Shown here piece after piece: positions 2,723-45,533 of a DNA stretch of 64,000 nucleotides. The DNA comes from an uncultured delta proteobacterium (GTDB taxonomy: Bacteria > Desulfobacterota > Binatia > UTPRO1), in assembly GCA_963774015.1 (NCBI GenBank), contig CAVZDH010000001.1, positions 451,064-515,063 on the forward strand. Reading direction: 5' to 3'. Position numbers and translations under genes: made by a program. The first letter of the stretch is position 1. Every line of letters starts with the position of its first letter. The notes under the pieces are model-generated. The model worked only from the letters and a program-made list of their open reading frames with translations. It did no database searches and was not told where the DNA came from.

Positions 2723-3697
2723 TCATTCCCCCTCGGGAGGCGGCGCCAGCGGATCGAGGACGACGGCGCTTCGCGACGTCGGCGGCAGCACCTCGGCGAG
2801 TCCGGCGCGGATCGCGGTGACGAGGGCGTCGGTCACCCGGCGGCGGAGATGGCTGCGAGCGGTGACGAGCCCGATCTCCCGCACGGGAGCGGGGGCTACC
2901 AGCGGTCGGACCTGGCGCTTGCGCCGGGCGGCGGGCAGGGCGCGCACCACGAGCTCGGGCAGGACGGTCGCGCCGAGCCCCTCGTCCACGAGTCGCACCA
3001 GGGTCTCGAAGCTGCCGCTCTCGAACTGGATGCGTGCCGGGCGTGGACGGGGCTCGGCGCCGCAGTACGAGAGGACTTGGCTTCGAAAGCAGTGTCCCTC
3101 GGGCATGATCCAGAGCTCGCGCTCGCTGAGCGCGGTCTGGCTCACGGTCTTCCTGCGCAGCAGCGGGTCGCCGAGCGGGAGATAGGCGAGCAAGCGCTCG
3201 AGCCCCAACACCTCCTCGCGGAGGCCGGCGACCCGGAGCGGTGTCGCGACGAGCCCGGCGTCGAGCGTGTCGGAACGAAGCCGTGCGATCGCCTCTTCGG
3301 TCTTGAGCTCCTCGATCGCGAGCTCGACGCGCGGATGGGCGGCGGCGAATCCGCCGACGAAGAGCGGCAGGACCGTCGGCGCGAGCGTCGGGATGACCCC
3401 GAGCCGAAAACGGCCCGCGGGCTCGTCGCCCTCGGCCACGACCTGTCCGAGGCGCTCGGTCTCGCGCAGCACCGTCCGCATCTGCGCGAGCGCCGGGACG
3501 CCTTCCGGCGTGACGAGGAGGGGCTTCTTGCTGCGGTCGAAGAGCACCAAGCCGAGCAGACCCTCGAGCTTGCCGATCTGCATGCTGAGGCCGGGCTGGG
3601 AGACGTGGCAGCGCTCGGCGGCCTGACGAAAGCTGTGGGCGTCGTCGACGGCGATCGCATACCGCATCTGGGCGAGGGTGACCTGGCTCAGATCCAT
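2723..3697 (-). CDS. oxyR: LysR-family transcriptional regulator, OxyR-like
   Basis: N-terminal LysR HTH (LAQMRYAIAVDDAHSFRQAAERCHVSQPGLSMQIGKLE); divergently adjacent to ahpC, the canonical oxyR context. Confidence 0.75.
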   Translation of the reverse strand: MDLSQVTLAQMRYAIAVDDAHSFRQAAERCHVSQPGLSMQIGKLEGLLGLVLFDRSKKPLLVTPEGVPALAQMRTVLRETERLGQVVAEGDEPAGRFRLGVIPTLAPTVLPLFVGGFAAAHPRVELAIEELKTEEAIARLRSDTLDAGLVATPLRVAGLREEVLGLERLLAYLPLGDPLLRRKTVSQTALSERELWIMPEGHCFRSQVLSYCGAEPRPRPARIQFESGSFETLVRLVDEGLGATVLPELVVRALPAARRKRQVRPLVAPAPVREIGLVTARSHLRRRVTDALVTAIRAGLAEVLPPTSRSAVVLDPLAPPPEGE

Positions 3698-3828
3698 GCC
3701 GTGAGCCTGACATAAGTTATACTTAAGTCAAATTAGAAACGTTCGATTCGACTTCTGGCGGTTCGGGTCGCATACAGCAGGGGCGGGCGCGGTGCCCGAC
3801 ATCGTCAACGACAGCCAAGGAGGAGCGC
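3698..3828. promoter_or_regulatory. Divergent oxyR/ahpC promoter region with AT-rich near-palindromic element and ahpC RBS
   Basis: AT-rich island ATAAGTTATACTTAAGTCAAATTAGAAA in an otherwise 70% GC context; AAGGAGGA 6 nt upstream of the ahpC ATG. Confidence 0.4.
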
Positions 3829-4392
3829 ATGTCTCTCATCAACACGACCATCAAACCGTTCAACGCCACGGCCTTCCACGACGGCAAGTTCGTCGAGGTC
3901 TCCGACGAGTCCATTCGCGGTCGCTGGAGCGTCTTCGTGTTCTACCCGGCCGATTTCACGTTCGTATGTCCCACCGAGCTCGAGGACCTGGCCGACCACT
4001 ACGCCGAGTTCACGAAGCTCGGCGTCGAGGTCTACGGCGTCTCGACCGACACGCACTTCGCGCACAAGGCCTGGCACGACACGTCGGAGGCCATCAAGAA
4101 GGTGCGCTATCCGCTGGTCGGCGACCCGACCGCCACCCTCGCCCGCAACTTCGACGTGCTGATCGAGGAGGAGGGGCTCGCGCTTCGCGGCAGCTTCGTC
4201 GTCGATCCCGACGGCAAGATCAAGCTTTGCGAGATCCACGACAACGGCATCGGCCGCGACGCGAAAGAGCTGCTCCGCAAGGTCAAGGCCGCCCAGTACG
4301 TGGCCTCGCATCCCGGCGAGGTCTGCCCCGCGAAGTGGCAAGAGGGCGCGAAGACGCTGAAACCGTCGCTCGACCTCGTCGGCAAGATCTAA
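3829..4392 (+). CDS. ahpC: Alkyl hydroperoxide reductase subunit C (2-Cys peroxiredoxin)
   Basis: 187 aa; peroxidatic Cys motif FTFVCPTEL and resolving Cys near C-terminus (EVCPAKW); near full-length similarity to AhpC. Confidence 0.95.
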
Positions 4393-4410
4393 GGGGAGGA
4401 CGCGACCGCC

Positions 4411-5043
4411 ATGCTCGACGACGCGATGAAGGCGCAGTTGACGCAGTACCTCACGCACCTGCGACGACCGATCCGGATCACGGCCGCGCTCGACGACGGC
4501 CCCGACTCCACGGCGCTGCGCGAGCTCCTCCGGGACGTCGCCGCGGCGTCGAGCATGGTGGAGGTCGTCGACGACGACGGCACGCCGGACGACGGGGCCG
4601 GCATCCGCCGTCCCTCGTTCGCGATCCATCTGCCGGGCGAGGCGGCGCGCGTGCGCTTCGCCGGCGTGCCGCTCGGGCACGAGCTCACGTCGCTCGTGCT
4701 CGCGCTGCTGCACGTCGGCGGACACCCGCCGAAGGTCGGCGCCGAGGTGCTGGCGCAAGTGGACGGCCTCGGCGGGACCTATCATTTCGAGACGTACTTC
4801 TCGCAGTCCTGTCAGAACTGTCCCGACGTGGTGCAGGCCTTGAACCTGATGGCCGTCCGCAATCCGAACGTCACGCACGTCGCGATCGACGGCGCGACCT
4901 TCCAGGCCGAGGTCGACGACGCGTCAGGTGATGGCGCCGGCGAGATCATCGTCGACGACCACGGGCGCACGAACGTCCCGGGCGTCTTTGCGGCCGGCGA
5001 CGTGACCACCGTGCACGACGAGTCCGCCGTAGCCTCGCAACCG
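4411..5043 (+). pseudogene. ahpF: ahpF remnant: AhpF N-terminal thioredoxin-like domain joined to the last ~30 residues, FAD/NAD domain deleted
   Basis: N-terminus matches AhpF (MLDDAMKAQLTQYL...RFAGVPLGHELTSLVLALL...SQSCQNCPDVVQALNLMAV...HVAIDGATFQAEVDD) then jumps to the AhpF C-terminal block GEIIVDDHGRTNVPGVFAAGDVTTV; ~300 aa of reductase core absent and downstream frame is nonsense. Confidence 0.7.
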
Positions 5044-5128
5044 GTCTGCGACGTCGCATGTGCTCCCCGGATTGACTGCGTGTGGGCCCTCGGCGAGAAC
5101 TCTCGGCGACGCAACGCCGAGAGGAATC

Positions 5129-6851
5129 ATGGGACGCGACATACTGCTTCGGGTGCTTGCCGTGGCGATGGCCTTCGGCGTGATGGTCGCTGGCGAATCC
5201 AAGGCGATCGCCTCGCCGATCTCGCTGTTGATCCCGCAGTCGACGGCGTTCACGGTGCTCGGTCACTCGTGCGGGGGGATCCAGGAGCAGGCCTTCGCGA
5301 CCGGCTTCGATGTGATGAGCGGCGATCCGACCGGTGACGTCTATCTGCAGACGCGTTGCGGTGGCAGCGGCAGGGGCGGCGGGTACCACACCACGACGTA
5401 CTCCGCCTGGGTCGCGGTGACCTGGGACTTCACGGGGGCGCCGGTGTCGCATGCGGTCCTCCCGTCCCCCCCGGCGGACGTCGACCCGAGCTTTTCGGCG
5501 TTCGATGGGTCCGGGAACGAGCTGTACGACGTGCTCAACGCGGTGAACGTGGCGCCGGCGAGCTGCGCGGTCGGCAACACGACCTATTGCACCTATCGAG
5601 CGTATCTCGTCCTGGCCTCCGGGTTCGTCGCCGCGCCGCGAGTGACGAGCGTGTCGGTGACCTCCGGGCCGGCCGCCGGTGGCACGAGCGTCGCCATCGC
5701 CGGAACCGGATTCACCGGCGCGACGGCGGTGACCTTCGGCGACGTCCCCGCGGCGGGCTTCACCGTGAACGCCGACACCTCCATCACGGCGGTCTCGCCG
5801 GCCGCGAGCGCAGGTACCGTCGACGTCGCGGTCATGACGGACGGTGGCACGAGCGCGGCGAGCGCGAGCGATCGGTTCACCTTCGTTGCCGCGCCCACCG
5901 TGTCGGGGATCGATCCCGACGGCGGTCCGGTCGACGGCGGGACTCTGGTGGCGATCAGCGGCGCGAGCTTCATCGACGTGATCGCGGTCTACTTCGGGGA
6001 GACGCCGGCGGGGTTCACCGTGAACGACGACGGGTCGATCACCGCGGTCTCACCGCCGGCCGAGGCTCCCGACACGGTCGAGGTCAGGGTCGTGACGGTC
6101 GGCGGAACGAGCGCCGATTCGGCGGCCTTCGCGTACACGACCTCCGCCCCGGGCTCGGTCTGCGGCGACGCGATCGTCGATCCCGGGGAGCAATGCGACG
6201 ACGGCGCCGCCGACGGTACGCCCGGCGATTGCTGCACCGCTACATGCACGTTCCGGACGGCGGGCACGGCCTGCGTCGACGACGGCAGCCTCTGTACCTC
6301 GGACGTCTGCGAGGGCGGTGCGTGCACGCACGTCGGCCGCGCCGGCGCTCGCGTGCACGCCGCCGGACGTCGCGGGGGGCGCATCCTTGCTCGTGCGTCG
6401 GCTGCGGTCGGGTCGGAACCAGGTGCAGCTCCTGTGGGGCAAGGGACCGACCGTTCCGCTCACGGCTTTCGGCGATCCCAGCGCCGGTGCGACGTTCCAG
6501 CTCTGCGTCTACGACGAGACGGGCTCCGGCACGCCGGCGCTCGCCGTGACGGGCTCGCCCTCGGAGAGCGGCGGCGGGCACTGGACGCGGACACGCACGC
6601 AATGGAGGTTCCGCAGTGCAACCGGGGCGCCCGACGGCATCACCGCGGTGACGCTCACGGGTGCGACGGTCCCGCTGAAGGCGAAGGTCCAGGTGAAAGC
6701 GACGACCGGACCACTGCCGGTGCCGCTTCCCTGGCGGCACGATCCGAGCGTCGTCGCGCAGCTGAGGACGTCGTCCGGTGCATGCTGGGGCGCCACCTTC
6801 TCGGCTCCGACGGTCGACTCGGCGACCGAGCTCAAGACGAAGTCGGATTGA
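5129..6851 (+). CDS. Secreted IPT/TIG-repeat protein with myxo-type cysteine-rich repeat and conserved C-terminal domain (frameshift near 6320-6350)
   Basis: Signal peptide MGRDILLRVLAVAMAFGVMVAG; three IPT/TIG-like repeats (VTSVSVTSGPAAGGTSVAIAGTGFTGA...); Cys-rich CGDAIVDPGEQCDDGAADGTPGDCCTATC; C-terminal block continues in a second frame (ORF 6318-6851) and is homologous to the C-terminus of the 53759-59008 protein. Confidence 0.6.
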
Positions 6852-7074
6852 GTGAAGCCCCTCGACGACTCGGATCGACGGTGTCCGATCCCGTCCTCCG
6901 CTCCCGCAAGTTCTTGCACGTCGCCCTTCCGGCGGGCGCAAACTCTGGCACGGTCGACCCACGATCGCGCCCGAGCGGCGACGCGCGGCACGGCCGTTTT
7001 CTGGCACTTCGCGTGCAACGGCCGCTTCGCATGAGCGCAACTCCCGTCTCCTGCTCGTTCCTCCGTACGCTCGC

Positions 7075-8178
7075 TTGACGACGCTCATGCTCACGGTGCT
7101 GGCGTTGTGGTTGCTGGCGGCCCTCGTCTATCGCTGGCTCGCCCTCGATGCCGTCGGCCGTCTTTGCACGCCGTCCGCTCCCGCCGTCGCCACGGCGGCG
7201 GCGCCGGCTCCATTCCAGGTGGTGGCGATTCGTCCGTTGCATGGGGCGGCGTCTTGGCTCGAGCCCTGTCTCGAGAGCCTCTGGCGCGAGGCCGCCGCGA
7301 CGCGTACGCCGCTCGTGATCGGTTGGACCGACAGCAACGATCCCGCGGGAGCGGTGGTCGCGTCGCTACAGGCGCGCGCCTCCTGGCCGGCCCTCGTGCG
7401 GGTCGGACCGGGCCCGTCCGGCGCCAATCCAAAGGTCGCGAACATGATCCAGATGACCTCGGGTGTCGCGGCCGACGTGTTGTTGCAGTCGGATGCCGAC
7501 GTGCGCGTCCCTTCGGGATACGTCGCGGCCATGACCGCGCCGTTCGCCGACCCGTCGGTCGGTCTCGCGACCTGCCCCTATCGCAGCGTTCCCGGGTCGG
7601 GAATCGCAAGCCGTCTCGACGCCTTGATGACCAACACGCACTTCCTGCCGAGTGCCTGCCTGGCGGTGCGCCTGGAAGGCCTCCATTTCGGCCTCGGCGC
7701 GACCATCGCCGTCCGTGCCTCGGCGCTGGAGCGCGCGGGGGGCCTCGCGGCCTTGCTCGGGACGCCCGCTGACGACTACATGCTTGCCCGCAACGTCGAG
7801 GCGGCGGGATCGCGGCTCGCGTGGGTGCCGATGGTGGTCGAGCATGCGGTCGACGAGCGGTCCTGGCGCGCCGTGCTGCGCCGTCACCTGCGATGGGCGC
7901 GGGTCACCCGAACCGTCCGGTTCTGGGGCTATCTCGGGCAGATGTTCACGCACGGCAGCGTGCCGATGCTGCTGGTGTCCGTGTACGTCGCGGCGACCGC
8001 GCGGCTCGCCGCCGTGTTCCTGCCGGTCGGCTGGTGGACGTTGCAGATGACGGCGCTCTGGCGTCAACGGTCGGCGCTCGGCTTGCGTGCCCGCGATCTC
8101 CCGCTCGTGCCACTCGCCGATCTCGGCGCGTTCCTCGTCTTCCTGGGGGGCATCGTCGGTCGCGCCGAGCCGAGCTGA
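7075..8178 (+). CDS. hpnI: Glycosyltransferase family 2, hopanoid-associated HpnI-like
   Basis: 367 aa membrane-anchored GT2-like protein (DADVRVPSGYV, ceramide-glucosyltransferase-like) immediately upstream of hpnJ/hpnK homologues. Confidence 0.65.
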   Translation: MTTLMLTVLALWLLAALVYRWLALDAVGRLCTPSAPAVATAAAPAPFQVVAIRPLHGAASWLEPCLESLWREAAATRTPLVIGWTDSNDPAGAVVASLQARASWPALVRVGPGPSGANPKVANMIQMTSGVAADVLLQSDADVRVPSGYVAAMTAPFADPSVGLATCPYRSVPGSGIASRLDALMTNTHFLPSACLAVRLEGLHFGLGATIAVRASALERAGGLAALLGTPADDYMLARNVEAAGSRLAWVPMVVEHAVDERSWRAVLRRHLRWARVTRTVRFWGYLGQMFTHGSVPMLLVSVYVAATARLAAVFLPVGWWTLQMTALWRQRSALGLRARDLPLVPLADLGAFLVFLGGIVGRAEPS

Positions 8179-8189
8179 CCGCGGTGACG

Positions 8190-9284
8190 ATGCCGGCCTT
8201 CGCCGTGGTGCTCTCGGCGCCGTACGGCACGCAACCGTCGGTGGCGGGCCTGACGCCGGCGGAGCGTACGCGCCGCGCGCTCGCGATGCAGCGGCACGAG
8301 GACATGCCGTCGGGCGACGATGCCCCGACGCTCTTCATCGCTGCCGATGCGCTCGTCGAACCCGATGCCATCGCGGCCCTGCTCGCAGCGGCGGCGCGAA
8401 AGGGGGCGGCGATCGCGGCGGGCGACGATCCCGAGCGTCCCGCGGTGATCGCGATGTCGGTGCGCGAGGCGCGGGCGCGTCGGTTGACGGCGACCGATCA
8501 GCTGGCCGGCTGCGCCGCGGCGCTTCGACGCGACGGCGGCGTCCAGATCGTCGACGTCGGCGAGGCGCTGTGTCTGCGGGTCGACCAACCCGCGACCGCG
8601 GCACGGGTGACCCGAATCCTCCTCGCGCGCCTCATCCGTCCCACCGACGGATTCCTCGCCCGCCACTTCGATCGCTACGTGTCGCGCCGTCTCTCCGTGC
8701 ATCTGGTCGCCCGCGGCGTTTCCCCCAACGTGGTGACCGTCGGGGCGACCTTGGTCGGGCTCGCGGGCGCCGGACTGCTTGCCGATGCCCATCGGCTGGG
8801 GCGCGTTCTCGGTGCGGCGCTCTTCGTGATCTCGACCATCTTGGACGGTTGCGACGGCGAGGTCGCCCGTCTCGCGCTCCGCTGTTCCGACTTCGGGCGA
8901 CGATTGGATCTCGTCGGCGACAACGTGGTCAACGCCGCGGTGTTCGCGGCGCTCGCCTACGCGCTCGCGCACGGCGCCGACGGCGGCATCTCGTCGGCGG
9001 TGGTGTGGGTCACGGCGGCGGGATTCGTGGTCGCGACCCTTACGGGATTCGTGTTCTCGAGCTGGCTCGCGCGCACTCGACGCGTCATCGAGCGCGATTG
9101 GTACGAGCGTCTCACGGGCCGCGACTTCGCGTACGTCATCCTCGTGCTCGCGATCGTCGGCCGCCTCGACTGGTTCGTGGGGCTGGCCGGCATCGGCTGT
9201 TTCGTCTTCGCCGCGGCCGTCCTGGCGTATTGGGCATGGCTGTCTCGGCAGCCGATGCCTCCCAGCGACCGCGGCGGTCAGTGA
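8190..9284 (+). CDS. CDP-alcohol phosphatidyltransferase family protein with N-terminal extension
   Basis: C-terminal half carries the CDP-OH transferase motif DGCDGEVARLALRCSDFGRRLDLVGD; N-terminal ~150 aa of unclear fold; ATG at 8190 just after the hpnI stop. Confidence 0.7.
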   Translation: MPAFAVVLSAPYGTQPSVAGLTPAERTRRALAMQRHEDMPSGDDAPTLFIAADALVEPDAIAALLAAAARKGAAIAAGDDPERPAVIAMSVREARARRLTATDQLAGCAAALRRDGGVQIVDVGEALCLRVDQPATAARVTRILLARLIRPTDGFLARHFDRYVSRRLSVHLVARGVSPNVVTVGATLVGLAGAGLLADAHRLGRVLGAALFVISTILDGCDGEVARLALRCSDFGRRLDLVGDNVVNAAVFAALAYALAHGADGGISSAVVWVTAAGFVVATLTGFVFSSWLARTRRVIERDWYERLTGRDFAYVILVLAIVGRLDWFVGLAGIGCFVFAAAVLAYWAWLSRQPMPPSDRGGQ

Positions 9285-10749
9285 AGGGAGGCGGCGGCGT
9301 CGGGGAGGGGCGTGTGCTCGGCGGTGCGCGGTTGGCGCCGTTGCGCCATGAAGGCGAAGAACTCCCGCGCCTCGCGCAACCGTCGGCGCATCACCTCGCG
9401 GTCGCGCAGCATGTCGCGCATGATGCGAAGGATCGGGCGCGGACGCAGATAGTAGGCGCGGTAGAAGCGCTCCAGCGCCTCGTGAATCTCGCCGCTCGGC
9501 AGGTCGCCGTAGGAGAGCACGGCCTCCTGAATGCCGCCGCCCTGGACGAGATCGGCCGACGCCGACCCCGCAGCCAACCCCGCTCGCGGGCCTGACGGTA
9601 GAGCTCCGTTCCCGGGTAGGGTGCGGCGAGCGAGACCTGCAGGCTGTAGGGATCGATCGTTTTCGCGAAGTCGATCGTCTGCTCGATCGTCTGTCGCGTC
9701 TCTCCCGGCAGGCCGAGAATGAAGGTCCCGTGGATCAGGATGCCGAGCTTCCGGCAGTCCCGCGCGAATTGATGCGCGCGATCGATCCGGGTCCCCTTCT
9801 TGATGTTGTTCAGGATCTCCTGACTCCCGGTCTCGAAGCCCACGAGCAGCAGGCGGAGTCCGTTCTCACGCATCACGCGCAGCGTCTCGAACGGCACGTT
9901 CGCCTTGGCGTTGCACGACCACGTCATGCCGAGCTTGCCGAGACCTCGGGCGATCGCCTCGGCGCGCGGGCGATCGTCGGTGAACGTGTCGTCGTCGAAG
10001 AAGAACTCACGTACCTGCGGGAAGAGACGTCGTGCGTGCGCCATCTCGGCGACGACGTGCTCGACGCTCCGGGTCCGGTAGGTGTGCCCGGCGATGGTCT
10101 GCGGCCAGAGGCAGAAGCTGCACCGGCTGCGGCATCCCCGGCCGGTATAGAGCGACACGTAGGGATGCAGGAGGTAGCCGATGTCGTAGTGGTCGACGGT
10201 GAGATGGCGTGCGTAGACGTCGGTAACGAAGGGAAAGGCGTCGAGGTCGTGAATGGGCGGCGCCGCCGGCGTCCGCCGCACGCGGCCGTCGGGCGTCCGG
10301 TGGGCGACCCCCGCGACCTCGGACGCCGGCCGCCCCGCTGCCACGTCGCGAATCGCGTAGTCGAACTCGCCGGTGGTCACGAAATCCACGGCGGGCGCCA
10401 GGGCCAACGTCTCCTCCGGAAGCACCATCGTGTGCGCGCCGACGAACGCGATCTGCACGTCGGGATAGGTCTCCTTCAAGCGCGCCGCGAAGCGACTGTC
10501 GGGTACGACCGAGGGTGTGGAGGTGTGGATCACGACCAGGTCGTGGCCGGCGGCGCGCGCGATCACCTGCTCGACGGTGAGGTCGTCGGGAGGCGCGTCG
10601 ATCAGCGTGGAGTCGGGTACCAATGCGGCGGCTTGCGCGAGCCACGTCGGGTACCAGAAGGAGCGCACCTCGCGCCGCGCCTGGTAGCGCGCGCCGGCGC
10701 CGCCGTCGAAGCCTTCGAACGAAGGAGGATTCAGGTAGAGCGTCCGCAC
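9278..10749 (-). CDS. hpnJ: Hopanoid biosynthesis-associated radical SAM protein HpnJ (frameshift near C-terminus, about 9560-9600)
   Basis: N-terminus MRTLYLNPPSFEGFDGGAGARYQARREV and radical-SAM region GRGCRSRCSFCLWPQ typical of HpnJ; conserved C-terminal block (GGIQEAVLSYGDLPSGEIHEALERFYRAYYLRPR) lies in a different frame (ORF 9278-9577). Confidence 0.8.
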
Positions 10750-10773
10750 CGCGACATCCCGTCCGGGACGGGA

Positions 10774-11814
10774 CTAGTGAACGCCCCCCAGGCTGTCAAT
10801 CGGGGGTACGACATCCGTGAGCGCGCGCTCCGGCGCCGTGCCGGCGAGCGGGCGGGTGGGGGCGAGGGCGAGATACGCCACGAGTCCGACCAGCGCCCAC
10901 GTGAGTTGCTCGACCCGCAGCACGAGCGAGAGCAGCAAGCCGAGTCGAGCGGGCAGGCCCACCAGCGCGACGGCCACCATGCGCGCGCCCTCTTGGGCCC
11001 CGAGCCGTGCCGGGACGAAAAAGGAGAAGAGGTCGAGACCGATGCTCACCAGGAAAATTTCGACGACCGTACGAGCCACGACCGGCACGCCGGCGCCGGC
11101 GAGAAACGCACCCACTTGCACGGCGGCGATGGTCGTCGCGGCGAGGTGGAGGCCGAACGCGCGCCAGAGAGCGCCCGGGTATTCGGCGTGGAAGGCGTGG
11201 AGCCGTCGGTCGAGCGCGCGCGCGCCATTCGCAAGCCGTGCGCCGTACCCGACGCGGGTGAATCGCCGCGTGAGCGAGTGGCCGGTGACGAAGGCTCCGA
11301 GGCGTCCGCGCCGCTGCAGCACGAAGAAGGCACCGACGCCGATCGCCAGCAGGGCAGCCGCCGCCACGAGGGCGAGCCGCGCCGTGGTAGGAAAGCCGGC
11401 GTGGGCGAGGATCACGACCAGTCCGCAGACGCCGAACGCGCAATCCGACAGCGTGTCGGCGAGGCGATCGACGGAGATGGCCGTCACGTTTTCGAGCGCG
11501 GAGACGTGCCCGGCGAAGCTCGCGCGCACCACCTCGCCGCCGATCGTACCCGAGGGGGTCACGGTGTTGACCGCGTAGCTCGCCAGGCGGGCCCAGAACA
11601 TGCGTGCGAACGGCGGGCGCACGCCGGGGCGATAGCACCATCGCCAGGCGACGGTACGGACCGCATGCTCGACGCCGAACAGCGCCACGATCACCGGAAC
11701 GGTCCAGCCGAGCGCGAGCGCTTCGCGCCAGAGCTCCGAGACTCCGCTACGGGCGACCAGCAGCCCGAGCCCGAGACCGGAGAGCGCGAGCAGCATGCCG
11801 TGGATCCAGCGCAT
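10774..11814 (-). CDS. UPF0104/flippase-like integral membrane protein (HpnL-like)
   Basis: 346 aa, 8+ hydrophobic segments, lysylphosphatidylglycerol-synthase-like TM architecture; sits between hpnJ and hpnK. Confidence 0.5.
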   Translation of the reverse strand: MRWIHGMLLALSGLGLGLLVARSGVSELWREALALGWTVPVIVALFGVEHAVRTVAWRWCYRPGVRPPFARMFWARLASYAVNTVTPSGTIGGEVVRASFAGHVSALENVTAISVDRLADTLSDCAFGVCGLVVILAHAGFPTTARLALVAAAALLAIGVGAFFVLQRRGRLGAFVTGHSLTRRFTRVGYGARLANGARALDRRLHAFHAEYPGALWRAFGLHLAATTIAAVQVGAFLAGAGVPVVARTVVEIFLVSIGLDLFSFFVPARLGAQEGARMVAVALVGLPARLGLLLSLVLRVEQLTWALVGLVAYLALAPTRPLAGTAPERALTDVVPPIDSLGGVH

Positions 11815-11895
11815 TCCAGGCAGAGTTCACGGCGTGCGGGTCGGCGTCAACCCGGCATGGGGGCAGGTGCCGATCGCCCGTCTCTCGTGGCCCGC

Positions 11896-12753
11896 TCAGG
11901 ACGGCGGGCGGGTGGACGCCAGTTTTCCGTAGCTCGTGAGCACGACGCCGCGCGCCGCCACGATCGCGCGGGCGTCCGCATCCACCAACGCCTCAAGCTC
12001 GGCCCGTGGCGCCCGCCGCGGATCGTCGTCGGCGGCCGTGGAGGGGTGCAGGTAGATCTCGGTCACGCCGGCAGGAAGGGCGGCGAGCAGCGCCCGCAAG
12101 TGATCTCGCGTCATTCGTCCATCCTGGTAGAGACCCCACACCCGGTCGGCCGTCGCGAGCCCGGCCGCCCGCACCTTTCGGGCCGCATGCCGCCCGAGCC
12201 AGCGAAACATCAGCCAATGACTGAGCTTGTACCCGAGCCGCCCGTGATCCAGCCGCAGATTCAGACGCAGGTCGTCACGGACGACGCGCAACGCCGGGAT
12301 CCGATACTCCGCCGCGCACTCCAGCAGGATCGTCAAGACCTGCGGGTGCATGTGGATGTGCTGATGACCGGTGACGTGATCGAGCCGGAGGCCCGTCGCG
12401 TGGAAGCGCGCGAGCTGCGCCCGGATCTCGTCGACGAGCTCCCGACGAGCACTGCGCGAGAACTGGTAGCGAAATCCCGCCCAGGGCGAGCTCGCCGGCA
12501 GGCGTCCGTCGGCGTCCACGAGGTGGGGGATCCGCGCGGCAGGCAATGCCGAACGTGCGAGCGAGAGCGCGAGGTGGAGCCCCACGGCGAGGCTCGGGGT
12601 GGCATGCGCCGCCGCCACCGCCGGCTCCCACGCGGCGCCGGTCACCATCATGCTCGCCGTCGTGAGGATGCCGCGGCGATGAGCGTCGACGACCGCCGCG
12701 TTGACCGCGTCCGACGCGCCGAAGTCGTCGGCGGTCACGATGAGCTGGCGCAT
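11896..12753 (-). CDS. hpnK: Hopanoid biosynthesis-associated YdjC-like deacetylase HpnK
   Basis: MRQLIVTADDFGASDAVNAAV N-terminus and HxH motif GHQHIHMHP typical of YdjC/HpnK carbohydrate deacetylases. Confidence 0.75.
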   Translation of the reverse strand: MRQLIVTADDFGASDAVNAAVVDAHRRGILTTASMMVTGAAWEPAVAAAHATPSLAVGLHLALSLARSALPAARIPHLVDADGRLPASSPWAGFRYQFSRSARRELVDEIRAQLARFHATGLRLDHVTGHQHIHMHPQVLTILLECAAEYRIPALRVVRDDLRLNLRLDHGRLGYKLSHWLMFRWLGRHAARKVRAAGLATADRVWGLYQDGRMTRDHLRALLAALPAGVTEIYLHPSTAADDDPRRAPRAELEALVDADARAIVAARGVVLTSYGKLASTRPPS

Positions 12754-12935
12754 GAGGCGCGAGGTTATCGACCGCCGACGTGGGCGCCGCAAGCACGTGG
12801 CTCCGTATTGTCACTCGGCTGGCGCGCGGGATAAACGGGGACGCTTCATCCATGGGTCGTCGGCGAAGGTCACTCATACGCGCACGCGGGCGCGGTTTGC
12901 GCGTCGGTCGAGGCGACGGCCGGGGTCCGACGTGG

Positions 12936-14282
12936 ATGGCTGTGCTCGCGGCGGCATGGGTGGCCTGTGTGCCGACGGCCGCGCGCGGCTCGGGACCGCC
13001 GTTGACGTTGTCCGCTGCGATCGCCATGGCGCTGCACCAGAGCGGCGGTGCGCGGATCGCCGCCCTCGAGTCCGGGCAGGCGCAGGACGCGCTCGGCGTG
13101 GCACGCAGCTCCTATCTCCCCCATCTCGTCGTCTCGAGCGGCATCGGCTATTCCAATCGTCAGAACGAAAAGCTCCGCGCCGTCGACGCCGAGGGACACG
13201 AGAGGGTGTACGGCCTGCAGTCGATCGGCGCGCGCGACGGGTGGTTCAACGTGGAGGTGGAGCAGCTGATCGTCGACCTCGAGCGCTGGCGGCGCATCGA
13301 TCAACGCGCGCTCGGCGCGGCGGCGGCCGCCGCCGCGGCGGACGAGCAGCGCGGCGCCGCCGTACGCGACGTGACCGTGGCGTTTGCGAACGTGCTGCGC
13401 TCCGACGAGCTGCGTGCGCTCGCGCTCGAGCGCGCCCGCCAGGCGTCGTGGCTCGACGAGCAGGCCGCGTTCTTGCTGCGTGCCGGTCGCGTCCTTTCCG
13501 CCGAACGCGAGCACGCCGCGATTGCAGCGGAGGAGGCCACGCTCGAGACCCGGACGCGCGACGACCAGCTCGTGCAGGCGCGCACGACGCTTCAGCGCGC
13601 GATCGGTGATCCGGCCCTCGACGTGTCGCGGCTCGATCCCTCGAGCCTTCCAGATCCCGAGCTGCCTTCCGACGATCTCGCGTCCGATCGGATCCTGGCG
13701 GCGACGCCCGCGCTGCGCGTCCTGGATCTCCGCAGGCGCGTCGAGGAGAGCGGCGTCGGTGCGGCGCGTGCGGAGCGCTACCCGACGGTGGGTCTCCGCG
13801 CGGGGTATTCCGACTACGGCCCGAACCGCTACGACAACTATCCGGACCAGGTGGGCGTGCACGTGGCCGTGCAGGTGCCGATCTTCGACGGCAACCGAGC
13901 GACCTACGACATCGCGAGCGCGAGCAAAGCCGCCGAGATCGCGCGTCTCCGCTATCGCAACGAGCTCGAGGACACCCGCGCGCGGGTGCGGGATCTCGCC
14001 AATCGTCTCGTCGCGGCGCGCGAGCGCGCGACGCTCGCGGAGCGGCGTGCGGCGCTCAGCCGCGAGCAAGTGCGGCTGGTGGATCTCCGACTGCGGGAGC
14101 AGCGCGGGACATTGGCGGAGGCGGAGGCCGCGCGCGACGCCTTCGGTCGCGATGCGAGCGCCGCCGTCGACGCCCGCTACGACCGGATCGAGATCTGGGC
14201 GACCGTGATGGCGGAGAGCGGACGGCTGCTGTCGGCGCTCGGAGGCGGGTCCGTGCGCTCCGACGGGAGCGTGACGCCATGA
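12936..14282 (+). CDS. TolC-family outer membrane efflux protein
   Basis: Signal peptide MAVLAAAWVACVPTAARG; duplicated OEP repeats with SYLPHLVVSSGIGYS and RYPTVGLRAGYSDYG motifs; first gene of efflux operon. Confidence 0.75.
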   Translation: MAVLAAAWVACVPTAARGSGPPLTLSAAIAMALHQSGGARIAALESGQAQDALGVARSSYLPHLVVSSGIGYSNRQNEKLRAVDAEGHERVYGLQSIGARDGWFNVEVEQLIVDLERWRRIDQRALGAAAAAAAADEQRGAAVRDVTVAFANVLRSDELRALALERARQASWLDEQAAFLLRAGRVLSAEREHAAIAAEEATLETRTRDDQLVQARTTLQRAIGDPALDVSRLDPSSLPDPELPSDDLASDRILAATPALRVLDLRRRVEESGVGAARAERYPTVGLRAGYSDYGPNRYDNYPDQVGVHVAVQVPIFDGNRATYDIASASKAAEIARLRYRNELEDTRARVRDLANRLVAARERATLAERRAALSREQVRLVDLRLREQRGTLAEAEAARDAFGRDASAAVDARYDRIEIWATVMAESGRLLSALGGGSVRSDGSVTP

Positions 14283-14292
14283 GGAGCGCCGC

Positions 14293-15426
14293 GTGATCGC
14301 GGGGGCCTGGCTGCTTCGCCACCGTCGGCTGGTCACCGCCGCGCTGCTGATCGCGGCGCTCGTCGTGATCTGGTCGAGCCGGCGGCCCGTGCTGGCGGTC
14401 CAGAGTGACGAGGTCAGGCGCGGTCGACTCTTGGTGACGGTCACCACCAACGGGAAGGTCGAGCCGATCGACGACGTCGAGGTGCGGGCGCGACTCGAGG
14501 GGCGCGTGCTCGAGATCGTCGACCCGGGCGTCCGGGTCGCGGCCGGGGAGGTGTTGGCGCGGCTCGACGGTGGGCTCGCCGCCGCCGCGCTCGCGGCCGC
14601 GCAGTCCGAGGAGCGCGGGGCCGAGGAGGAGCTTCGGGCGGCACGCGCCGCGACGGCGCTCGCCAAGGATCGCCTGGCGGTCGACCGGCGCCTCCAGTCG
14701 GAAGGAGCACTCACGCGCGAGCGCGTGACGGAGAGCCTCGGGGAGATGCGCGCCGCCGAAGCCCGGCTCGCCTTTTTGGAGCACGACGTGCCCCTGCGGG
14801 TGGCGGCGCTCGACCTCCGCATCCGGGAGCTCGCGGCCGAGCGCGACGCCGCCACCGTGAGCGCGCCCATTGCCGGCACGGTGTATCGAACCCAGGCCAA
14901 GATGGGAGAGCTGGTCCGCCTCGGGGATCCGCTGGTGTGGATCGCGGACCTCGAGCGCTTGCGGGTGCGGGCCAACGTCGATCAGGTCGACCTCGGCCGC
15001 GTCCAAGCCGGACAGTCGGTGCGCATCGCCTCGAACGCGTTCCCGACGCGGGGCTGGACCGGTCGCATCACCGAGGTCACCCCGCACGTCGTCACGCGGG
15101 AGAATCGCTCCATCGCGGAAGGCCTCGCGGACATCGACCCGCCGCCGGACGGGCTCGTGCCGGGCATGACGGTCGACGTGGAGATCGCCGTGGCGGACGA
15201 TCACGACGTCCTGCAGGCATCCGCGGACGCGATCGTCGGCGATCAGCGACAACCGTTCGTGTATCGGATCGACGGCGGCCGCATTCGACGCACGCCGGTC
15301 AAGATCGGGCGCACGACCGTGGCGGCCGTGGAGGTCCTGGAGGGACTCGCGGCCGGCGATCGCGTCGTCGTGAGCCCGCGGCCGGACCTGGTCGACGGCG
15401 CGCGCGTCGAAGTGGCGAGCGAGTGA
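14293..15426 (+). CDS. Efflux periplasmic adaptor subunit (HlyD/MacA family)
   Basis: N-terminal TM anchor, long coiled-coil region, lipoyl/beta-barrel motifs (APIAGTVYRTQAKMGELV). Confidence 0.8.
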   Translation: MIAGAWLLRHRRLVTAALLIAALVVIWSSRRPVLAVQSDEVRRGRLLVTVTTNGKVEPIDDVEVRARLEGRVLEIVDPGVRVAAGEVLARLDGGLAAAALAAAQSEERGAEEELRAARAATALAKDRLAVDRRLQSEGALTRERVTESLGEMRAAEARLAFLEHDVPLRVAALDLRIRELAAERDAATVSAPIAGTVYRTQAKMGELVRLGDPLVWIADLERLRVRANVDQVDLGRVQAGQSVRIASNAFPTRGWTGRITEVTPHVVTRENRSIAEGLADIDPPPDGLVPGMTVDVEIAVADDHDVLQASADAIVGDQRQPFVYRIDGGRIRRTPVKIGRTTVAAVEVLEGLAAGDRVVVSPRPDLVDGARVEVASE

Positions 15427-16133
15427 CCGTGCCGGCCGCGCATACCGCGCCGGCGACGGTCATCCGCCTGTCGAACGTGGTGAAGAGCTACGGTCGCAAC
15501 GGCGCCAACGTCGCCGCCCTGCGCGGCGTGGACCTCGCCATCCGCGACGGCGAGCTCACGGCCATCATGGGTCGTTCCGGATCGGGAAAGTCGACGTTGC
15601 TGCACATCATCGGACTGATCGACGCGGAGTACGACGGACAATATTGGCTCGACGGCACGCTGGTCTCCGGGCACACGCCCGAGGAGCTGGCCGCGCTCCG
15701 CAATCGCACCATCGGGTTCGTCTTTCAGTCGTTCTTCTTGCTCCCGCAGTTGTCGATCCTGGAGAACGTCGCGTTGCCTGCGCTCTATGCCCGCGATCGT
15801 CCCGCCGACGAGTGCCGGGAGATGGCGCGCGCTCGGCTCGAGGAGATGGGACTCGCGCCCCGTCTCGACCACAAGCCGGGCGAGCTCTCGATCGGGCAGC
15901 GCCAGCGCGCGGCGATCGCCCGCGCCCTGGTGAACCGCCCGCGGGTGCTCCTCGCCGACGAGCCGACCGGCGCGCTCGACAGCCGAACCGCCGACGAGAT
16001 CCTCGACATCTTTCATCGACTCCATGCAGACGGTGCGACGATCGTCATGGTCACCCACGATCCCGACGTCGCCGCGGCGGCGGAGCGCGTCATCCACGTA
16101 CGCGATGGCCAAACGAGCGACGGGCTGGCTTAG
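15423..16133 (+). CDS. ABC transporter ATP-binding protein (MacB/LolD-type ATPase)
   Basis: Walker A GRSGSGKST, ABC signature LSIGQRQR, Walker B LLADEPTGALD, H-loop; GTG start overlaps upstream stop (GTGA). Confidence 0.9.
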   Translation: MTVPAAHTAPATVIRLSNVVKSYGRNGANVAALRGVDLAIRDGELTAIMGRSGSGKSTLLHIIGLIDAEYDGQYWLDGTLVSGHTPEELAALRNRTIGFVFQSFFLLPQLSILENVALPALYARDRPADECREMARARLEEMGLAPRLDHKPGELSIGQRQRAAIARALVNRPRVLLADEPTGALDSRTADEILDIFHRLHADGATIVMVTHDPDVAAAAERVIHVRDGQTSDGLA

Positions 16134-17307
16134 GCTGCTGCTGCGGTTCGCGCTCGACGGTCTCGCCGGACAGCGGGGTCGTTCGGGGCTCACGATCCTC
16201 GGCATGGCGATCGGGACGGCGAGCGTCGTCGGCGTCGTCTCGATCGGGCTCCTCGGTCGCGAGTACGTCGTCGGCTTGATCGAAGGGGTCGGGTCGAACT
16301 TGGTGTTCACCTACAGCCACAATCAAGGCGTCGATCCCGAAGAGATCGGCTTCGAGGACGTCGACGCCTTCCGGCAGATGCCGCGCGTGCGCGACGTCGC
16401 ACCGGTGCTCATCGACAGCCAGGTCCTCTCCGTCCGCGGGCAACCGCAAAACGTCGACGTGCTGGGCACCACTCCGTCGTACGCTCGCGTCCGCAACATG
16501 CTCGTGGTCGCCGGACGATTCCTCACCGACCAGGAGGAACGGAGCGGCGAGAAAGTCGCAGTCCTGTCGCAGGAGCTCGCCCAACGGACCGCGGGCACGT
16601 CGGGCCTGGGCGGCTGGATCCGGCTCTATGACCTCCGCTTCCGCGTCGTCGGCATCTACAAGGAGGGCGTCGAGAGCGCTGCGGCCGTGCAAAAGAGCGA
16701 GGCCGCCGGCATCACCGCGATCATTCCGTTTTCGACGCTGCGCAGTCTCTCGCAAAAGCGCGCGGTCGACGTCGTCTACATGCAGGCCAGTAGCGCCGAT
16801 ACGGTGGCGCGTGTGGTGCGGAGCGTGACCGACGTGCTCCGCGCGCGCCACCGCGACGTGGGAAACTTCGCGGTCCAGTCGCTCGACCAGTACCTCGCGC
16901 TCGCAAAAACCGTCTCCGATACCCTGACGCTGGTGCTCATCGCGATCGCGGCCATCTCGCTGCTGGTCGGCGGCATCGGGATCATGAACATCATGCTGGT
17001 GACGGTCACCGAGCGGACGCGCGACATCGGCATTCGCTTGGCCTTGGGCGCCCACCGCCGCGACATCCTGCTGCAGTTTCTCTTCGAGGCCGGCATCCTG
17101 AGCTTCGCAGGCGGCGTCATCGGCGTGGCGCTCGGCGCCGGCGTTCCGCTGTACCTCGGGGCGATCTACGAGGTCGACGTGCCGGTCTCGCTGGCGAGCG
17201 TCCTGATCGCCTTTCTGGTGTCGGTCGCGGTCGGCATCTTCTTCGGCCTCTATCCGGCTCGCCGGGCCGCGGCGATGAACATCGTCGACGCGCTCGGGTA
17301 CGAGTGA
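16105..17307 (+). CDS. ABC transporter permease (FtsX/MacB-like)
   Basis: N-terminal TM, large periplasmic domain, C-terminal FtsX-like 3-TM bundle (GIGIMNIMLVTVTERTRDIGIRLALGA). Confidence 0.85.
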   Translation: MAKRATGWLRLLLRFALDGLAGQRGRSGLTILGMAIGTASVVGVVSIGLLGREYVVGLIEGVGSNLVFTYSHNQGVDPEEIGFEDVDAFRQMPRVRDVAPVLIDSQVLSVRGQPQNVDVLGTTPSYARVRNMLVVAGRFLTDQEERSGEKVAVLSQELAQRTAGTSGLGGWIRLYDLRFRVVGIYKEGVESAAAVQKSEAAGITAIIPFSTLRSLSQKRAVDVVYMQASSADTVARVVRSVTDVLRARHRDVGNFAVQSLDQYLALAKTVSDTLTLVLIAIAAISLLVGGIGIMNIMLVTVTERTRDIGIRLALGAHRRDILLQFLFEAGILSFAGGVIGVALGAGVPLYLGAIYEVDVPVSLASVLIAFLVSVAVGIFFGLYPARRAAAMNIVDALGYE

Positions 17308-17334
17308 CGCGCGGGGGCCGTCCCGAGGACGCCC

Positions 17335-18102
17335 TCAACGCGCGGCGCGGCCGACGAGCAGGCCCAGGAAGAAGATCCCGGCGGCGACGGCGATCACGAG
17401 AGGGCCCGTCTCCACGTGGAGAAGCGGGGCGGCGAGCGCACCGACCACCGTCGCCGTCACCGCGATCCCGATCGAGAGCGCGCGCATCTGGTGGAAGTCG
17501 CGCGCGAGGTGCTTGGCGGTCGCCGCTGGGATGATGATGAGCGAGCCCATGAGCAACACGCCGAGATAGCGCAGGCCGAGCGCGACGGTCGTCGCGAAGG
17601 CGAGCAGGAAGCCGAGATGGAGCCGGGCGACGTCGATTCCCGCCGTACGGGCGAGATCGGCCGACACGAGCGCGATCACGAGGCGGTGCTGGGCACGCCA
17701 GACGAAGCCGATGACGGCGAGCGCGGCCACGACCCCGAGCACGGTCTCGCGCACCCCCGGCGATGCGGGGGCGCCGAAGAGCGCGTCGATCAGCTCCTCG
17801 CCGGAGGCGAGCATGCTGCCGAGCGCGAGCGCCGCCGAGAAGAGCACGCCGATGATCGTCTCGGTCGGGATGCGCGTCGTCGCCTCGAGCGCCCACACCA
17901 GCACCGCGCCGAGCAGGAGCGCGGCAAACCCGCCCAGGACGGGATCCGCGTGCAACAAGACCGCGATGCCGATGCCGGGGAGCGCCATGTGCGAGAGCGC
18001 GTCGGATGCGAGCGCCATGCGCCGCATGACCGCGATCGCGCCGACCAGCCCGGCCGCCGCCGCCATGGCGACCGGCAGGACGAGATCAGCGATCGCGGGC
18101 AT
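17335..18102 (-). CDS. Metal ABC transporter permease (ZnuB/MntB/TroCD family)
   Basis: 255 aa polytopic membrane protein with ABC-3 family signature layout (GSLIIIPAATA). Confidence 0.8.
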   Translation of the reverse strand: MPAIADLVLPVAMAAAAGLVGAIAVMRRMALASDALSHMALPGIGIAVLLHADPVLGGFAALLLGAVLVWALEATTRIPTETIIGVLFSAALALGSMLASGEELIDALFGAPASPGVRETVLGVVAALAVIGFVWRAQHRLVIALVSADLARTAGIDVARLHLGFLLAFATTVALGLRYLGVLLMGSLIIIPAATAKHLARDFHQMRALSIGIAVTATVVGALAAPLLHVETGPLVIAVAAGIFFLGLLVGRAAR

Positions 18103-21797: not shown

Positions 21798-21815
21798 CGG
21801 GGGCGGCCGCGCGGC

Positions 21816-24380: not shown

Positions 24381-24438
24381 TCGGCGGATGCCTCGGCCGG
24401 CTTGAGCCGACGCGGGGAAACCGCGAGGATGGTGCGTC

Positions 24439-43110: not shown

Positions 43111-45533
<2,423 letters not shown>

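What the first reader, a model, noticed from the sequence alone, without database searches (positions are those of the whole stretch)
4411..5043. ahpF reduced to a remnant by a ~0.9-kb internal deletion while ahpC and oxyR are intact
The ORF after ahpC begins as a typical AhpF N-terminal redox domain (CxxC present: SQSCQNCPDV) up to ...HVAIDGATFQAEVDD, then jumps to the AhpF C-terminal block GEIIVDDHGRTNVPGVFAAGDVTTV and then to nonsense. The FAD/NADH-binding reductase core is missing, so AhpC would have to be recycled by a different reductase, or the remnant NTD retains a role.
Basis: partly seen in the sequence, partly recalled or inferred. Interest (0 to 1): 0.5.

Follow-up and report, generated by a model that had tools for sequence, protein, structure and literature searches.

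The report
Broken ahpF gene remnant beside ahpC
The gene for the reductase that recharges the peroxide-destroying enzyme AhpC has been cut down to a dead remnant in this soil-type myxobacterial genome, which is ordinary gene decay, or possibly an assembly fault, rather than a new kind of protein.

Summary
ORF 4411-5337 starts as the AhpF N-terminal domain (aa 1-170 = AhpF 1-165, CxxC present). It then jumps to 25 residues matching AhpF 467-495, and after that has no similarity to AhpF.

DNA alignment to full-length ahpF genes of the nearest relatives (Polyangiaceae-like MAGs) shows three lesions within about 100 nt:
- a +1 base at 4920
- an 877-nt deletion at 4936|4937
- loss of the last 95 nt of the gene after about 5014, exactly where gene order with relatives breaks

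Every one of the 119 listed homologues is full length (483-539 aa), so this is not a conserved stand-alone family.

The remnant lacks all FAD and NADH motifs and the reductase CxxC. It also lacks the last three structural elements of its own redox-active thioredoxin fold, so a retained role is unlikely.

ahpC and the oxyR-like regulator are intact. Neither ahpC nor the remnant shows relaxed selection, so the event is recent or artefactual.

Caveat: the assembly has clear single-base insertion errors. The H+-PPase gene carries about 15, and the adjacent TIG gene carries one. The +1 at 4920 is therefore suspect, and the deletion needs read-level confirmation.

Verdict: ordinary pseudogene, low interest.

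The parts
2723..3697 (-). OxyR-like LysR-family regulator, divergently transcribed from ahpC; intact
   Evidence: Pfam HTH_1 plus LysR_substrate. The best NCBIfam hit is OxyR PRK11151, but at 159.9 bits it is below the 329-bit cut-off. All best PDB hits are OxyR structures, and the motif EGHCFRSQVLSYC aligns with the two redox cysteines. It is 80-89% identical to the regulator at the same position in relatives, with dN/dS 0.10-0.18.
3829..4392 (+). ahpC (2-Cys peroxiredoxin of the AhpF-partnered type); intact
   Evidence: TIGR03137 AhpC matches 1-187 of 187 at 344 bits (cut-off 272). Pfam AhpC-TSA plus 1-cysPrx_C. FTFVCPTEL and EVCPAKW are present, and the C-terminal tail is complete. It is 88-95% identical to relatives, with dN/dS 0.06-0.11 and only 2 lineage-specific amino-acid changes.
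4411..4936 (+). ahpF remnant, 5' block: the N-terminal domain up to the codons for ...AEVD(E)RQVMA. It holds a complete first thioredoxin fold and the first half of the second fold, with CxxC at residues 134/137.
   Evidence: TIGR03140 positions 1-165. PDB 4o5q/1hyu residues 1-165. Aligns to L047 9346-9873 and L001 3674-4204. AF2 pLDDT is 80-98 for residues 1-170.
4920..4920 (+). One extra base (C) relative to all five relatives. It shifts the frame, so the retained R-Q-V-M-A codons are read as ASGDGA.
   Evidence: GTCGACGA-GCGTCAGG in relatives against GTCGACGACGCGTCAGG in the window. It is of the same kind as the roughly 15 single-base insertions in the H+-PPase gene and the one in the TIG gene, so it may be a sequencing error.
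4936..4937 (+). Junction of the 877-nt internal deletion. The deletion removes the cis-Pro loop, beta3, beta4 and alpha3 of the NTD, the linker, the whole FAD and NADH domains and the CPHC redox centre.
   Evidence: Window 4936 corresponds to L047 9873 and L001 4204. Window 4937 corresponds to L047 10751 and L001 5082. There is no repeat or microhomology longer than about 2 nt at the two ends in relatives. The junction lies in a near-palindrome at 4929-4948.
4937..5014 (+). ahpF remnant, 3' block: 77-78 nt encoding (P)GEIIVDDHGRTNVPGVFAAGDVTTV, the C-terminal FAD-binding 'GD' motif.
   Evidence: blastn 87% to L047 10752-10828, E 3e-20. tblastn 88% to P0007 470-494. Pfam Pyr_redox_2 positions 252-283. 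PDB 4o5q residues 467-495.
5015..5128 (.). DNA with no similarity to ahpF or to the region downstream of ahpF in relatives. This is the left edge of the block that breaks gene order, and probably the upstream region of the next gene.
   Evidence: No match in the window or in any fetched locus. No ahpF-like reading in any frame. The last 95 nt of ahpF (L047 10829-10923) are absent.
5015..5337 (+). Chance open extension of the remnant ORF, overlapping the next gene in another frame.
   Evidence: Translation has no family match beyond residue 205. AF2 pLDDT is 28-47 for the modelled part, residues 191-239. The real gene starts at 5129 in another frame.
5129..6851 (+). Neighbouring gene: a secreted IPT/TIG plus Cys-rich-repeat protein, split by a +1 insertion near 6335. 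It is the first gene of the block 5015-23190 that separates the ahpF remnant from the genes that follow ahpF in relatives.
   Evidence: Pfam TIG. Orthologues L049, L050, L051 and L059 are in a single frame, while the window needs two. None of the orthologues with sufficient upstream sequence has ahpCF upstream. Gene order with L003 resumes at 23199 and with L047 at 39922.

Best explanation
This is a pseudogene. In an ancestor with the usual oxyR / ahpC-ahpF arrangement, ahpF was destroyed by structural lesions clustered within about 100 nt.

- An 877-nt internal deletion, with one extra base 16 nt upstream of it, removed everything from the middle of the second thioredoxin fold to the last FAD-binding motif.
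- A second break removed the last 95 nt of the gene. It joined the remnant to a block of unrelated chromosomal genes.

What is left cannot bind FAD or NADH. It has no reductase disulfide centre and only half of the thioredoxin fold that carries its CxxC. It therefore cannot pass electrons from NADH to AhpC (inferred from the missing parts).

The remnant probably still lies in the ahpC transcript and may be translated from its intact ribosome-binding site into an unstable polypeptide (inferred).

AhpC itself is intact. To stay active it would need another reductant encoded outside this window, such as a second AhpF, thioredoxin/thioredoxin reductase or AhpD. This was not testable here.

The event is recent relative to the split from the nearest sampled relatives.
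For: - Domain content: only AhpF 1-165 and 467-495 are present.
- Exact junctions come from DNA alignment to five full-length relatives.
- All 119 listed homologues other than the identical entry are full length, 483-539 aa, so no truncated family exists.
- The missing parts are nowhere else in the window.
- The 3' break coincides with a break in gene order. In L003 the gene after ahpF is the acyl-CoA dehydrogenase found at window 23199-24377. In L047 the downstream genes map to 39.9-45.5 kb and 51.1 kb.
- The intervening block holds ordinary genes at the genome's own G+C content, with no integrase found among the ORFs scanned.
- In the AF2 model, residues 1-170 are confident, but after helix 165-173 there are no strands and pLDDT falls from 57 to 28. 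This happened even though the input alignment had placed the tail opposite beta3/beta4.
- ahpC and the regulator are intact and under purifying selection.
Against: - The remnant shows no decay beyond the three lesions. It has 0 deviations at 59 columns that are at least 95% conserved. Its dN/dS of 0.24-0.33 equals that of intact-intact pairs. It has 7 lineage-specific amino-acid changes against 4-12 in relatives. This fits a very recent event, but equally fits an artefact or continued selection.
- The +1 and the -877 restore the reading frame, which has a 1-in-3 chance if the two are independent.
- The assembly has proven local single-base insertion errors.
- The exact junction was not found in any other metagenome assembly.
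- The window's source contig could not be retrieved, so there is no independent confirmation.
Confidence: 0.7

Rival explanations
1. Assembly or sequencing artefact: the organism has a normal ahpF. The deletion, the +1 base and the 3' join were created during long-read metagenome assembly, for example a low-coverage stretch built from few noisy or chimeric reads, or a minor structural variant taken as the consensus.
For: - The H+-PPase gene (43108-45533) carries about 15 single-base insertions. Removing them restores a perfect 806-codon ORF with 86% identity to L047 and no stops. Real decay would not look like that.
- The TIG gene 1.4 kb downstream of the remnant has a +1 insertion. The ahpF +1 at 4920 is of the same type.
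- Three anomalies within 100 nt is unusual.
- The remnant and ahpC show no relaxed selection at all.
- No second observation of the junction exists.
Against: - Base-calling errors give 1-2 nt indels, not an 877-nt loss plus a clean join to unrelated sequence.
- There is no repeat at either deletion end that could make an assembler collapse the region.
- oxyR, ahpC, the 5' 510 nt of ahpF, the acyl-CoA dehydrogenase, HAD and TrmO genes are free of frameshifts, so the ahp region is not generally of poor quality.
- The contig is long (1.47 Mb).
Confidence: 0.2
2. Functional truncated protein: the in-frame product acts as a stand-alone AhpC reductant or AhpC-binding protein. It would consist of the NTD through helix alpha2, a short linker and the GEIIVDD...VPGVFAAGD hairpin. 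The borrowed hairpin would replace the lost beta3/beta4, and another reductase such as thioredoxin reductase would supply electrons. This would echo the engineered AhpF 1-202 fragment.
For: - The CxxC and all 59 highly conserved NTD columns are unchanged, with no excess of amino-acid changes.
- The frame is maintained across the junction, and the ribosome-binding site and start codon are intact.
- MAFFT places GEIIVD/DHGR opposite VPTVYLNG/GQGR.
- By my own knowledge of Poole et al. 2000 (reference listed in PMC8945050), the isolated complete NTD is a competent AhpC reductant in vitro.
Against: - No other genome among the listed homologues has such a form.
- The cis-Pro loop, beta3, beta4 and alpha3 of the active thioredoxin fold are missing. 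AF2 does not build the tail into the fold (pLDDT 57 falling to 28, no strands), despite an alignment biased towards doing so.
- It scores far below the cut-offs for AhpF (193.7 against 502.9) and for the stand-alone PDO family (63.5 against 185).
- The in-frame reading depends on a base that is probably an error. Without it the product ends after 22 out-of-frame residues.
- The 3' part of the ORF is a chance read-through into the next gene.
Confidence: 0.04
3. Member of a naturally occurring family of stand-alone AhpF-NTD-like or protein disulfide oxidoreductase proteins that merely resembles a truncated AhpF.
For: Stand-alone two-thioredoxin-fold proteins exist and give weak hits: PDB 6il7, 5h29, 2ywm and 2hls, and TIGR02187 at 63.5 bits.
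Against: - The DNA is collinear with full-length ahpF of relatives at 80-87% identity on both sides of a clean junction, including a fragment of the FAD domain.
- The NTD itself is incomplete.
- No homologue of this architecture was found.
- It is below the family cut-off.
Confidence: 0.01

Closest known systems
AhpF, the NADH:peroxiredoxin oxidoreductase of Salmonella and E. coli (NCBIfam TIGR03140; PDB 1HYU, 4O5Q)
   Same: It sits immediately downstream of ahpC, next to a divergent oxyR-like gene. The N-terminal 165 residues are clearly orthologous, with the CxxC (SCQNCPD) conserved. The last FAD-binding motif (GVFAAGD) is present.
   Different: About 292 codons are missing: the end of the NTD, the linker, the GxGxxG FAD motif, the CPHC redox centre and the GGGNSG NADH motif. 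The last roughly 31 codons are also missing. The score is 193.7 bits against a cut-off of 502.9. It cannot be an NADH-dependent reductase.
Engineered AhpF N-terminal fragment, residues 1-202 (PDB 1ZYN/1ZYP; Poole et al. 2000 Biochemistry 39:6602, as listed in PMC8945050)
   Same: Both are AhpF without the flavoprotein part, and both keep the CxxC that reduces AhpC.
   Different: The engineered fragment keeps both complete thioredoxin folds. The remnant ends at about residue 165-170 of that fragment and lacks the cis-Pro loop, two strands and the last helix. It is followed by unrelated or out-of-context sequence.
Stand-alone two-thioredoxin-fold oxidoreductases (PDO family TIGR02187; PDB 6IL7, 5H29, 2YWM, 2HLS)
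   Same: Similar size class, and distant sequence similarity to the NTD.
   Different: Those are complete, conserved proteins. This sequence is 80-87% identical in DNA to the full-length ahpF genes of relatives, and is truncated inside the fold. It scores 63.5 bits against a cut-off of 185.
AhpC systems that use other reductants (AhpD with lipoamide enzymes in mycobacteria, as described in PMC8945050; thioredoxin-dependent AhpC in, for example, Helicobacter, from my own knowledge)
   Same: An AhpC without a working AhpF would have to rely on such a route.
   Different: No AhpD, thioredoxin reductase or thioredoxin gene lies in this window. This AhpC is of the AhpF-partnered type, with the C-terminal tail that binds the AhpF NTD (PMC5124861).

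Membership tests
AhpF (TIGR03140) | Whole-protein score at or above the curated equivalog cut-off | tested here: not met
   193.7 bits against a cut-off of 502.9; only profile positions 1-165 of 515 and a short C-terminal stretch are matched.
AhpF (TIGR03140) | N-terminal tandem thioredoxin-like folds with a CxxC in the second fold | tested here: inconclusive
   The CxxC is present (C134/C137) and the first fold is complete. The second fold stops after helix alpha2, so the cis-Pro loop, beta3, beta4 and alpha3 are absent.
AhpF (TIGR03140) | FAD-binding domain (N-terminal GxGxxG/A motif plus C-terminal GD motif) | tested here: not met
   Only the C-terminal GVFAAGD block is left. The VVGGGPAGAAAA region of relatives has no counterpart.
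AhpF (TIGR03140) | NADH-binding domain with GGGNSG and the redox-active CPHC disulfide | tested here: not met
   Entirely within the 877-nt deletion. No copy elsewhere in the window.
AhpF (TIGR03140) | Gene adjacent to and co-oriented with ahpC | tested here: met
   ahpC is at 3829-4392 and the remnant starts at 4411, the same layout as in L001, L002, L003, L005 and L047.
Stand-alone PDO / AhpF-NTD-like proteins (TIGR02187) | Complete two-thioredoxin-fold protein scoring above the cut-off and conserved as such in relatives | tested here: not met
   63.5 bits against a cut-off of 185. All 119 listed homologues are full-length AhpF.
Pseudogene (decayed copy of a gene that is intact in relatives) | Collinear DNA homology to an intact orthologue, interrupted by disabling lesions | tested here: met
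   80-87% DNA identity on both sides of an 877-nt gap, a +1 base at 4920, and the 3' end with its stop codon lost.
Pseudogene (decayed copy of a gene that is intact in relatives) | Relaxed selection on what is left | tested here: not met
   0 of 59 conserved columns are changed. dN/dS is 0.24-0.33, as in intact pairs. There are 7 lineage-specific amino-acid changes against 4-12 in relatives. This is compatible only with a recent event.
Pseudogene (decayed copy of a gene that is intact in relatives) | Lesions present in the organism's DNA rather than only in the assembly | not testable with these tools
   No reads are available. The source contig is not retrievable. The junction is not seen in other assemblies. 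The assembly has local insertion errors.
AhpC (TIGR03137), neighbouring gene | Full-length match above the cut-off with peroxidatic and resolving Cys | tested here: met
   344 bits against a cut-off of 272, matching 1-187 of 187. VCP motifs at Cys47 and Cys166.
OxyR, neighbouring gene | LysR-type regulator with the two redox Cys, divergent from a peroxide-defence operon | tested here: inconclusive
   All best PDB hits are OxyR and the HCFRSQVLSYC motif is conserved. The position is conserved in relatives. The NCBIfam OxyR equivalog score of 159.9 is below the cut-off of 329.

The most novel reading that the evidence does not exclude
The in-frame remnant is a naturally 'dissected' AhpF. It would be a short protein that keeps the AhpC-docking CxxC domain, patches its broken thioredoxin fold with the captured GEIIVDD...VPGVFAAGD hairpin, and is recharged by a general thiol reductase. 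A second possibility is that loss of the ahpF 3' end puts the downstream envelope-gene block under the OxyR-controlled ahpC promoter.
Probability: 0.04. Interest if true: 0.4.

Novelty: already known. Interest (0 to 1): 0.1.

Why it matters
If real, this tells us only that this one uncultured Polyangiaceae-like lineage has recently lost its dedicated AhpC reductase. It would have to rely on another reductant or other peroxide defences. That is a small point about the redundancy of oxidative-stress systems in large myxobacterial genomes.

The practical value is for annotation. The 308-aa ORF, which is present as a protein in public collections (P0001), should be flagged as a pseudogene or assembly problem. 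It should not be propagated as a 'pyridine nucleotide-disulphide oxidoreductase'. The window also shows that frameshifts in this assembly cannot be taken at face value.

Tried and rejected
- Retrieving the source contig by exact protein look-up failed for both the remnant and AhpC. I therefore could not scan the rest of the genome for a second ahpF, trxB or ahpD.
- An exact 26-mer across the deletion junction found nothing in the metagenome collection, so there is no independent confirmation of the junction.
- The source genome is not among the species representatives scanned. The best hits were 74-78% identical.
- I looked for the missing ahpF parts elsewhere in the window, in case of an inversion or a split gene. 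There were none.
- I looked for a repeat or microhomology that could explain the deletion or an assembler collapse. There was none longer than about 2 nt, only a near-palindrome at the junction.
- I tested whether 5015-5128 is a mobile-element end or a repeat. It has no matches.
- Aligning 5015-5128 to the upstream regions of TIG orthologues was uninformative because they are too divergent.
- I tested whether the block 5-23 kb is a foreign island. Its G+C is uniform (0.67-0.72) and no integrase or transposase was found among the ORFs scanned, so I rejected that idea.
- Consensus scans for promoters and terminators over 3600-7200 found nothing. They are not informative at 70% G+C.
- A literature search for natural ahpF pseudogenes gave no close precedent worth citing. 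It showed only that whole ahpCF loss occurs naturally, for example in S. sobrinus (PMC3751929).
- I considered that the H+-PPase frameshifts reflect general genome decay. I rejected this because removing the insertions restores a conserved, stop-free ORF.

Full report
**What is there**

The window carries a divergent pair. An OxyR-like LysR regulator lies on the minus strand (2723-3697) and ahpC on the plus strand (3829-4392). They are followed, after 18 nt with a good ribosome-binding site, by an ORF at 4411-5337 (308 aa).

- ahpC is complete. It matches the AhpC equivalog model end to end (344 bits, cut-off 272) and has both catalytic cysteine motifs.
- All the regulator's best solved-structure matches are OxyR proteins, and it keeps the HCFRSQVLSYC motif with both redox cysteines. 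It scores below NCBIfam's OxyR cut-off (159.9 against 329), so 'oxyR' rests on similarity and position.

**Check of the observation**

- The 308-aa ORF matches the AhpF equivalog model only over profile positions 1-165 of 515 (residues 1-170). Its total of 193.7 bits is far below the 502.9 cut-off.
- Against E. coli AhpF (PDB 4o5q), the first stretch spans chain residues 1-177, with real similarity ending near 165. Residues 176-204 align to 467-495.
- Pfam sees only the last 32 positions of Pyr_redox_2.
- After ...GDVTTV, no reading frame resembles AhpF.

**Exact anatomy from DNA alignment**

The nearest full-length genes come from Polyangiaceae-like or Myxococcota MAGs (L001, L002, L003, L005 and L047/L048). 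They have the same oxyR / ahpC-ahpF layout.

- Window 3722-4936 aligns to L047 8659-9873 (84%), and window 4938-5014 aligns to L047 10752-10828 (87%, E 3e-20).
- In both L047 and L001 coordinates, 877 nt are missing between window 4936 and 4937.
- Sixteen nucleotides upstream, the window has one extra C at 4920. Relatives read GTCGACGA-GCGTCAGG and the window reads GTCGACGACGCGTCAGG.
- The puzzling 'ASGDGA' is therefore simply the ancestral R-Q-V-M-A codons read out of frame.
- The +1 and the -877 together remove exactly 292 codons, which is why GEIIVDD... is back in frame.
- Homology ends at about 5014. The last 95 nt of ahpF, including the stop codon, are absent.
- The ORF runs on by chance to 5337, across the start (5129) of the next gene, which lies in another frame.
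- Neither deletion end carries a repeat or microhomology longer than about 2 nt. The junction happens to lie in a near-palindrome.
- The missing segments are nowhere else in the window.

**The 3' break coincides with a break in gene order**

- In L003 the gene that follows ahpF is an acyl-CoA dehydrogenase, 88% identical to window 23199-24377.
- In L047 the downstream genes correspond to window 39922-42651, 43108-45533 (H+-PPase) and 51.1 kb (TrmO).
- The intervening 5015-23190 encodes ordinary chromosomal functions at the genome's own G+C, with no integrase found among the ORFs scanned. These are a TIG-domain secreted protein, a GT21 glycosyltransferase, a CDP-alcohol phosphatidyltransferase, a B12 radical-SAM enzyme, an LPG-synthase-like membrane protein, YdjC, an OEP/HlyD/MacB efflux set, an ABC-3 permease and a rhomboid.
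- Orthologues of the TIG gene in other metagenomes do not sit next to ahpCF.

The remnant's 3' end was therefore created by a rearrangement in this lineage.

**Is it a family?**

No. Among the 120 best of 8000 scored homologues, the only 308-aa entry is the identical sequence itself (P0001, on one 1.47-Mb contig). The other 119 are 483-539 aa with the full set of flavoprotein domains.

**Can the remnant work?**

The deletion removes several parts:
- the GxGxxG FAD motif
- the CPHC redox centre
- the GGGNSG NADH motif
- the inter-domain linker
- the cis-Pro loop, strands beta3 and beta4 and helix alpha3 of the CxxC-bearing thioredoxin fold

I built an AlphaFold2 model from an alignment in which MAFFT had placed the captured GEIIVD/DHGR segment opposite beta3/beta4. 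That placement was favourable to a 'patched fold'. The model still gave confident structure only for residues 1-170 (pLDDT 80-98). After helix 165-173 there were no strands, and pLDDT fell from 57 to 28.

The engineered AhpF fragment known to reduce AhpC comprises residues 1-202, that is, both complete folds (PDB 1zyn; Poole et al. 2000, as cited in PMC8945050). The AhpC C-terminal tail docks on that NTD (PMC5124861). A retained role is therefore unlikely.

**Age of the event**

The remnant shows no decay beyond the three lesions:
- no change at any of the 59 columns that are at least 95% conserved among 120 homologues
- pairwise dN/dS of 0.24-0.33, the same as between intact relatives
- 7 lineage-specific amino-acid changes against 4-12 in relatives

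ahpC is likewise under strong constraint (dN/dS 0.06-0.11). With the nearest relatives at dS of about 0.5, this means only that the lesions are recent on that scale, or not real.

**Assembly quality: the main caveat**

- The H+-PPase gene at 43108-45533 switches frame about ten times. Against L047 it has about 15 single-base insertions, not in homopolymers.
- Deleting those insertions restores an 806-codon ORF with no stop and 86% identity. That is the signature of sequencing or assembly error, not of decay.
- The TIG gene next to the remnant has one such +1 insertion near 6335, while its four orthologues are in a single frame.
- oxyR, ahpC, the acyl-CoA dehydrogenase, HAD and TrmO genes have none.
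- The extra C at 4920 is therefore probably an error. Without it, the product would be the NTD up to ...ERQVMA plus 22 out-of-frame residues and a stop.
- An 877-nt loss and a join to unrelated DNA are not base-calling errors, and no repeat explains an assembler collapse. I therefore rate a real deletion at about 0.7 and an artefact at about 0.2. Only the reads can decide.

**Consequences, inferred rather than tested**

AhpC would need another reductant. No thioredoxin reductase, AhpD, thioredoxin or second AhpF lies in the 64 kb, and the rest of the genome could not be reached. Large myxobacterial genomes usually carry redundant peroxide defences (my own knowledge), which would make the loss tolerable.

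**Verdict**

The object is an ordinary, probably recent ahpF pseudogene, or an assembly fault, in an uncultured Polyangiaceae-like genome. It is not a new protein type. Interest is low.

Noticed in passing
window 43108-45533 (-): The H+-translocating pyrophosphatase gene is broken into about ten frame segments by about 15 single-base insertions, plus a few 1-2 nt indels, relative to the L047 orthologue. Removing them restores an 806-codon ORF with no stop and 86% identity. These are almost certainly local sequencing or assembly errors.
   Followed up: yes
window 5129-6851 (+), frameshift near 6335: The gene for a secreted IPT/TIG plus cysteine-rich-repeat protein is split into two frames by a +1 insertion. 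Orthologues L049, L050, L051 and L059 are in a single frame.
   Followed up: yes
window 45600-51100: A patch of mobile DNA at lower G+C (0.61-0.63) lies between the H+-PPase and TrmO genes, which are only about 290 nt apart in L047. It contains an IS200-like Y1 transposase (45844-46287), a PIN_10 (46668-47108) / DUF433-HTH (47129-47896) pair, an IS1-like DDE transposase (47977-48969), and a group II intron (49197-51083; Rfam RF02005 at 180 bits and RF00029) with its reverse transcriptase (49610-51130).
   Followed up: partly
window 7075-12810: A cluster that looks like a membrane-lipid or envelope modification set: a GT21 glycosyltransferase, a CDP-alcohol phosphatidyltransferase, a B12-binding radical SAM enzyme, an LPG-synthase-type membrane protein and YdjC.
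   Followed up: no
window 4929-4948: The deletion junction lies at the centre of a 20-nt near-palindrome, TGATGGCGCC|GGCGAGATCA (86% self-complementary). It may be a coincidence or a trace of the joining mechanism.
   Followed up: no
window 23199-25068 compared with L003 11708-19065: The acyl-CoA dehydrogenase and HAD hydrolase genes are adjacent in the window but about 5.5 kb apart in Polyangiaceae bacterium UTPRO1, where the dehydrogenase directly follows ahpF. The region downstream of ahpF is rearranged differently in every relative examined.
   Followed up: partly
window 39922-42651 (-): A 910-aa surface-type protein (SdrD_B/SpaA-like and DUF7450 repeats) shares only its C-terminal roughly 215 residues (54%) with the 725-aa gene that follows ahpF in L047.
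   Followed up: no
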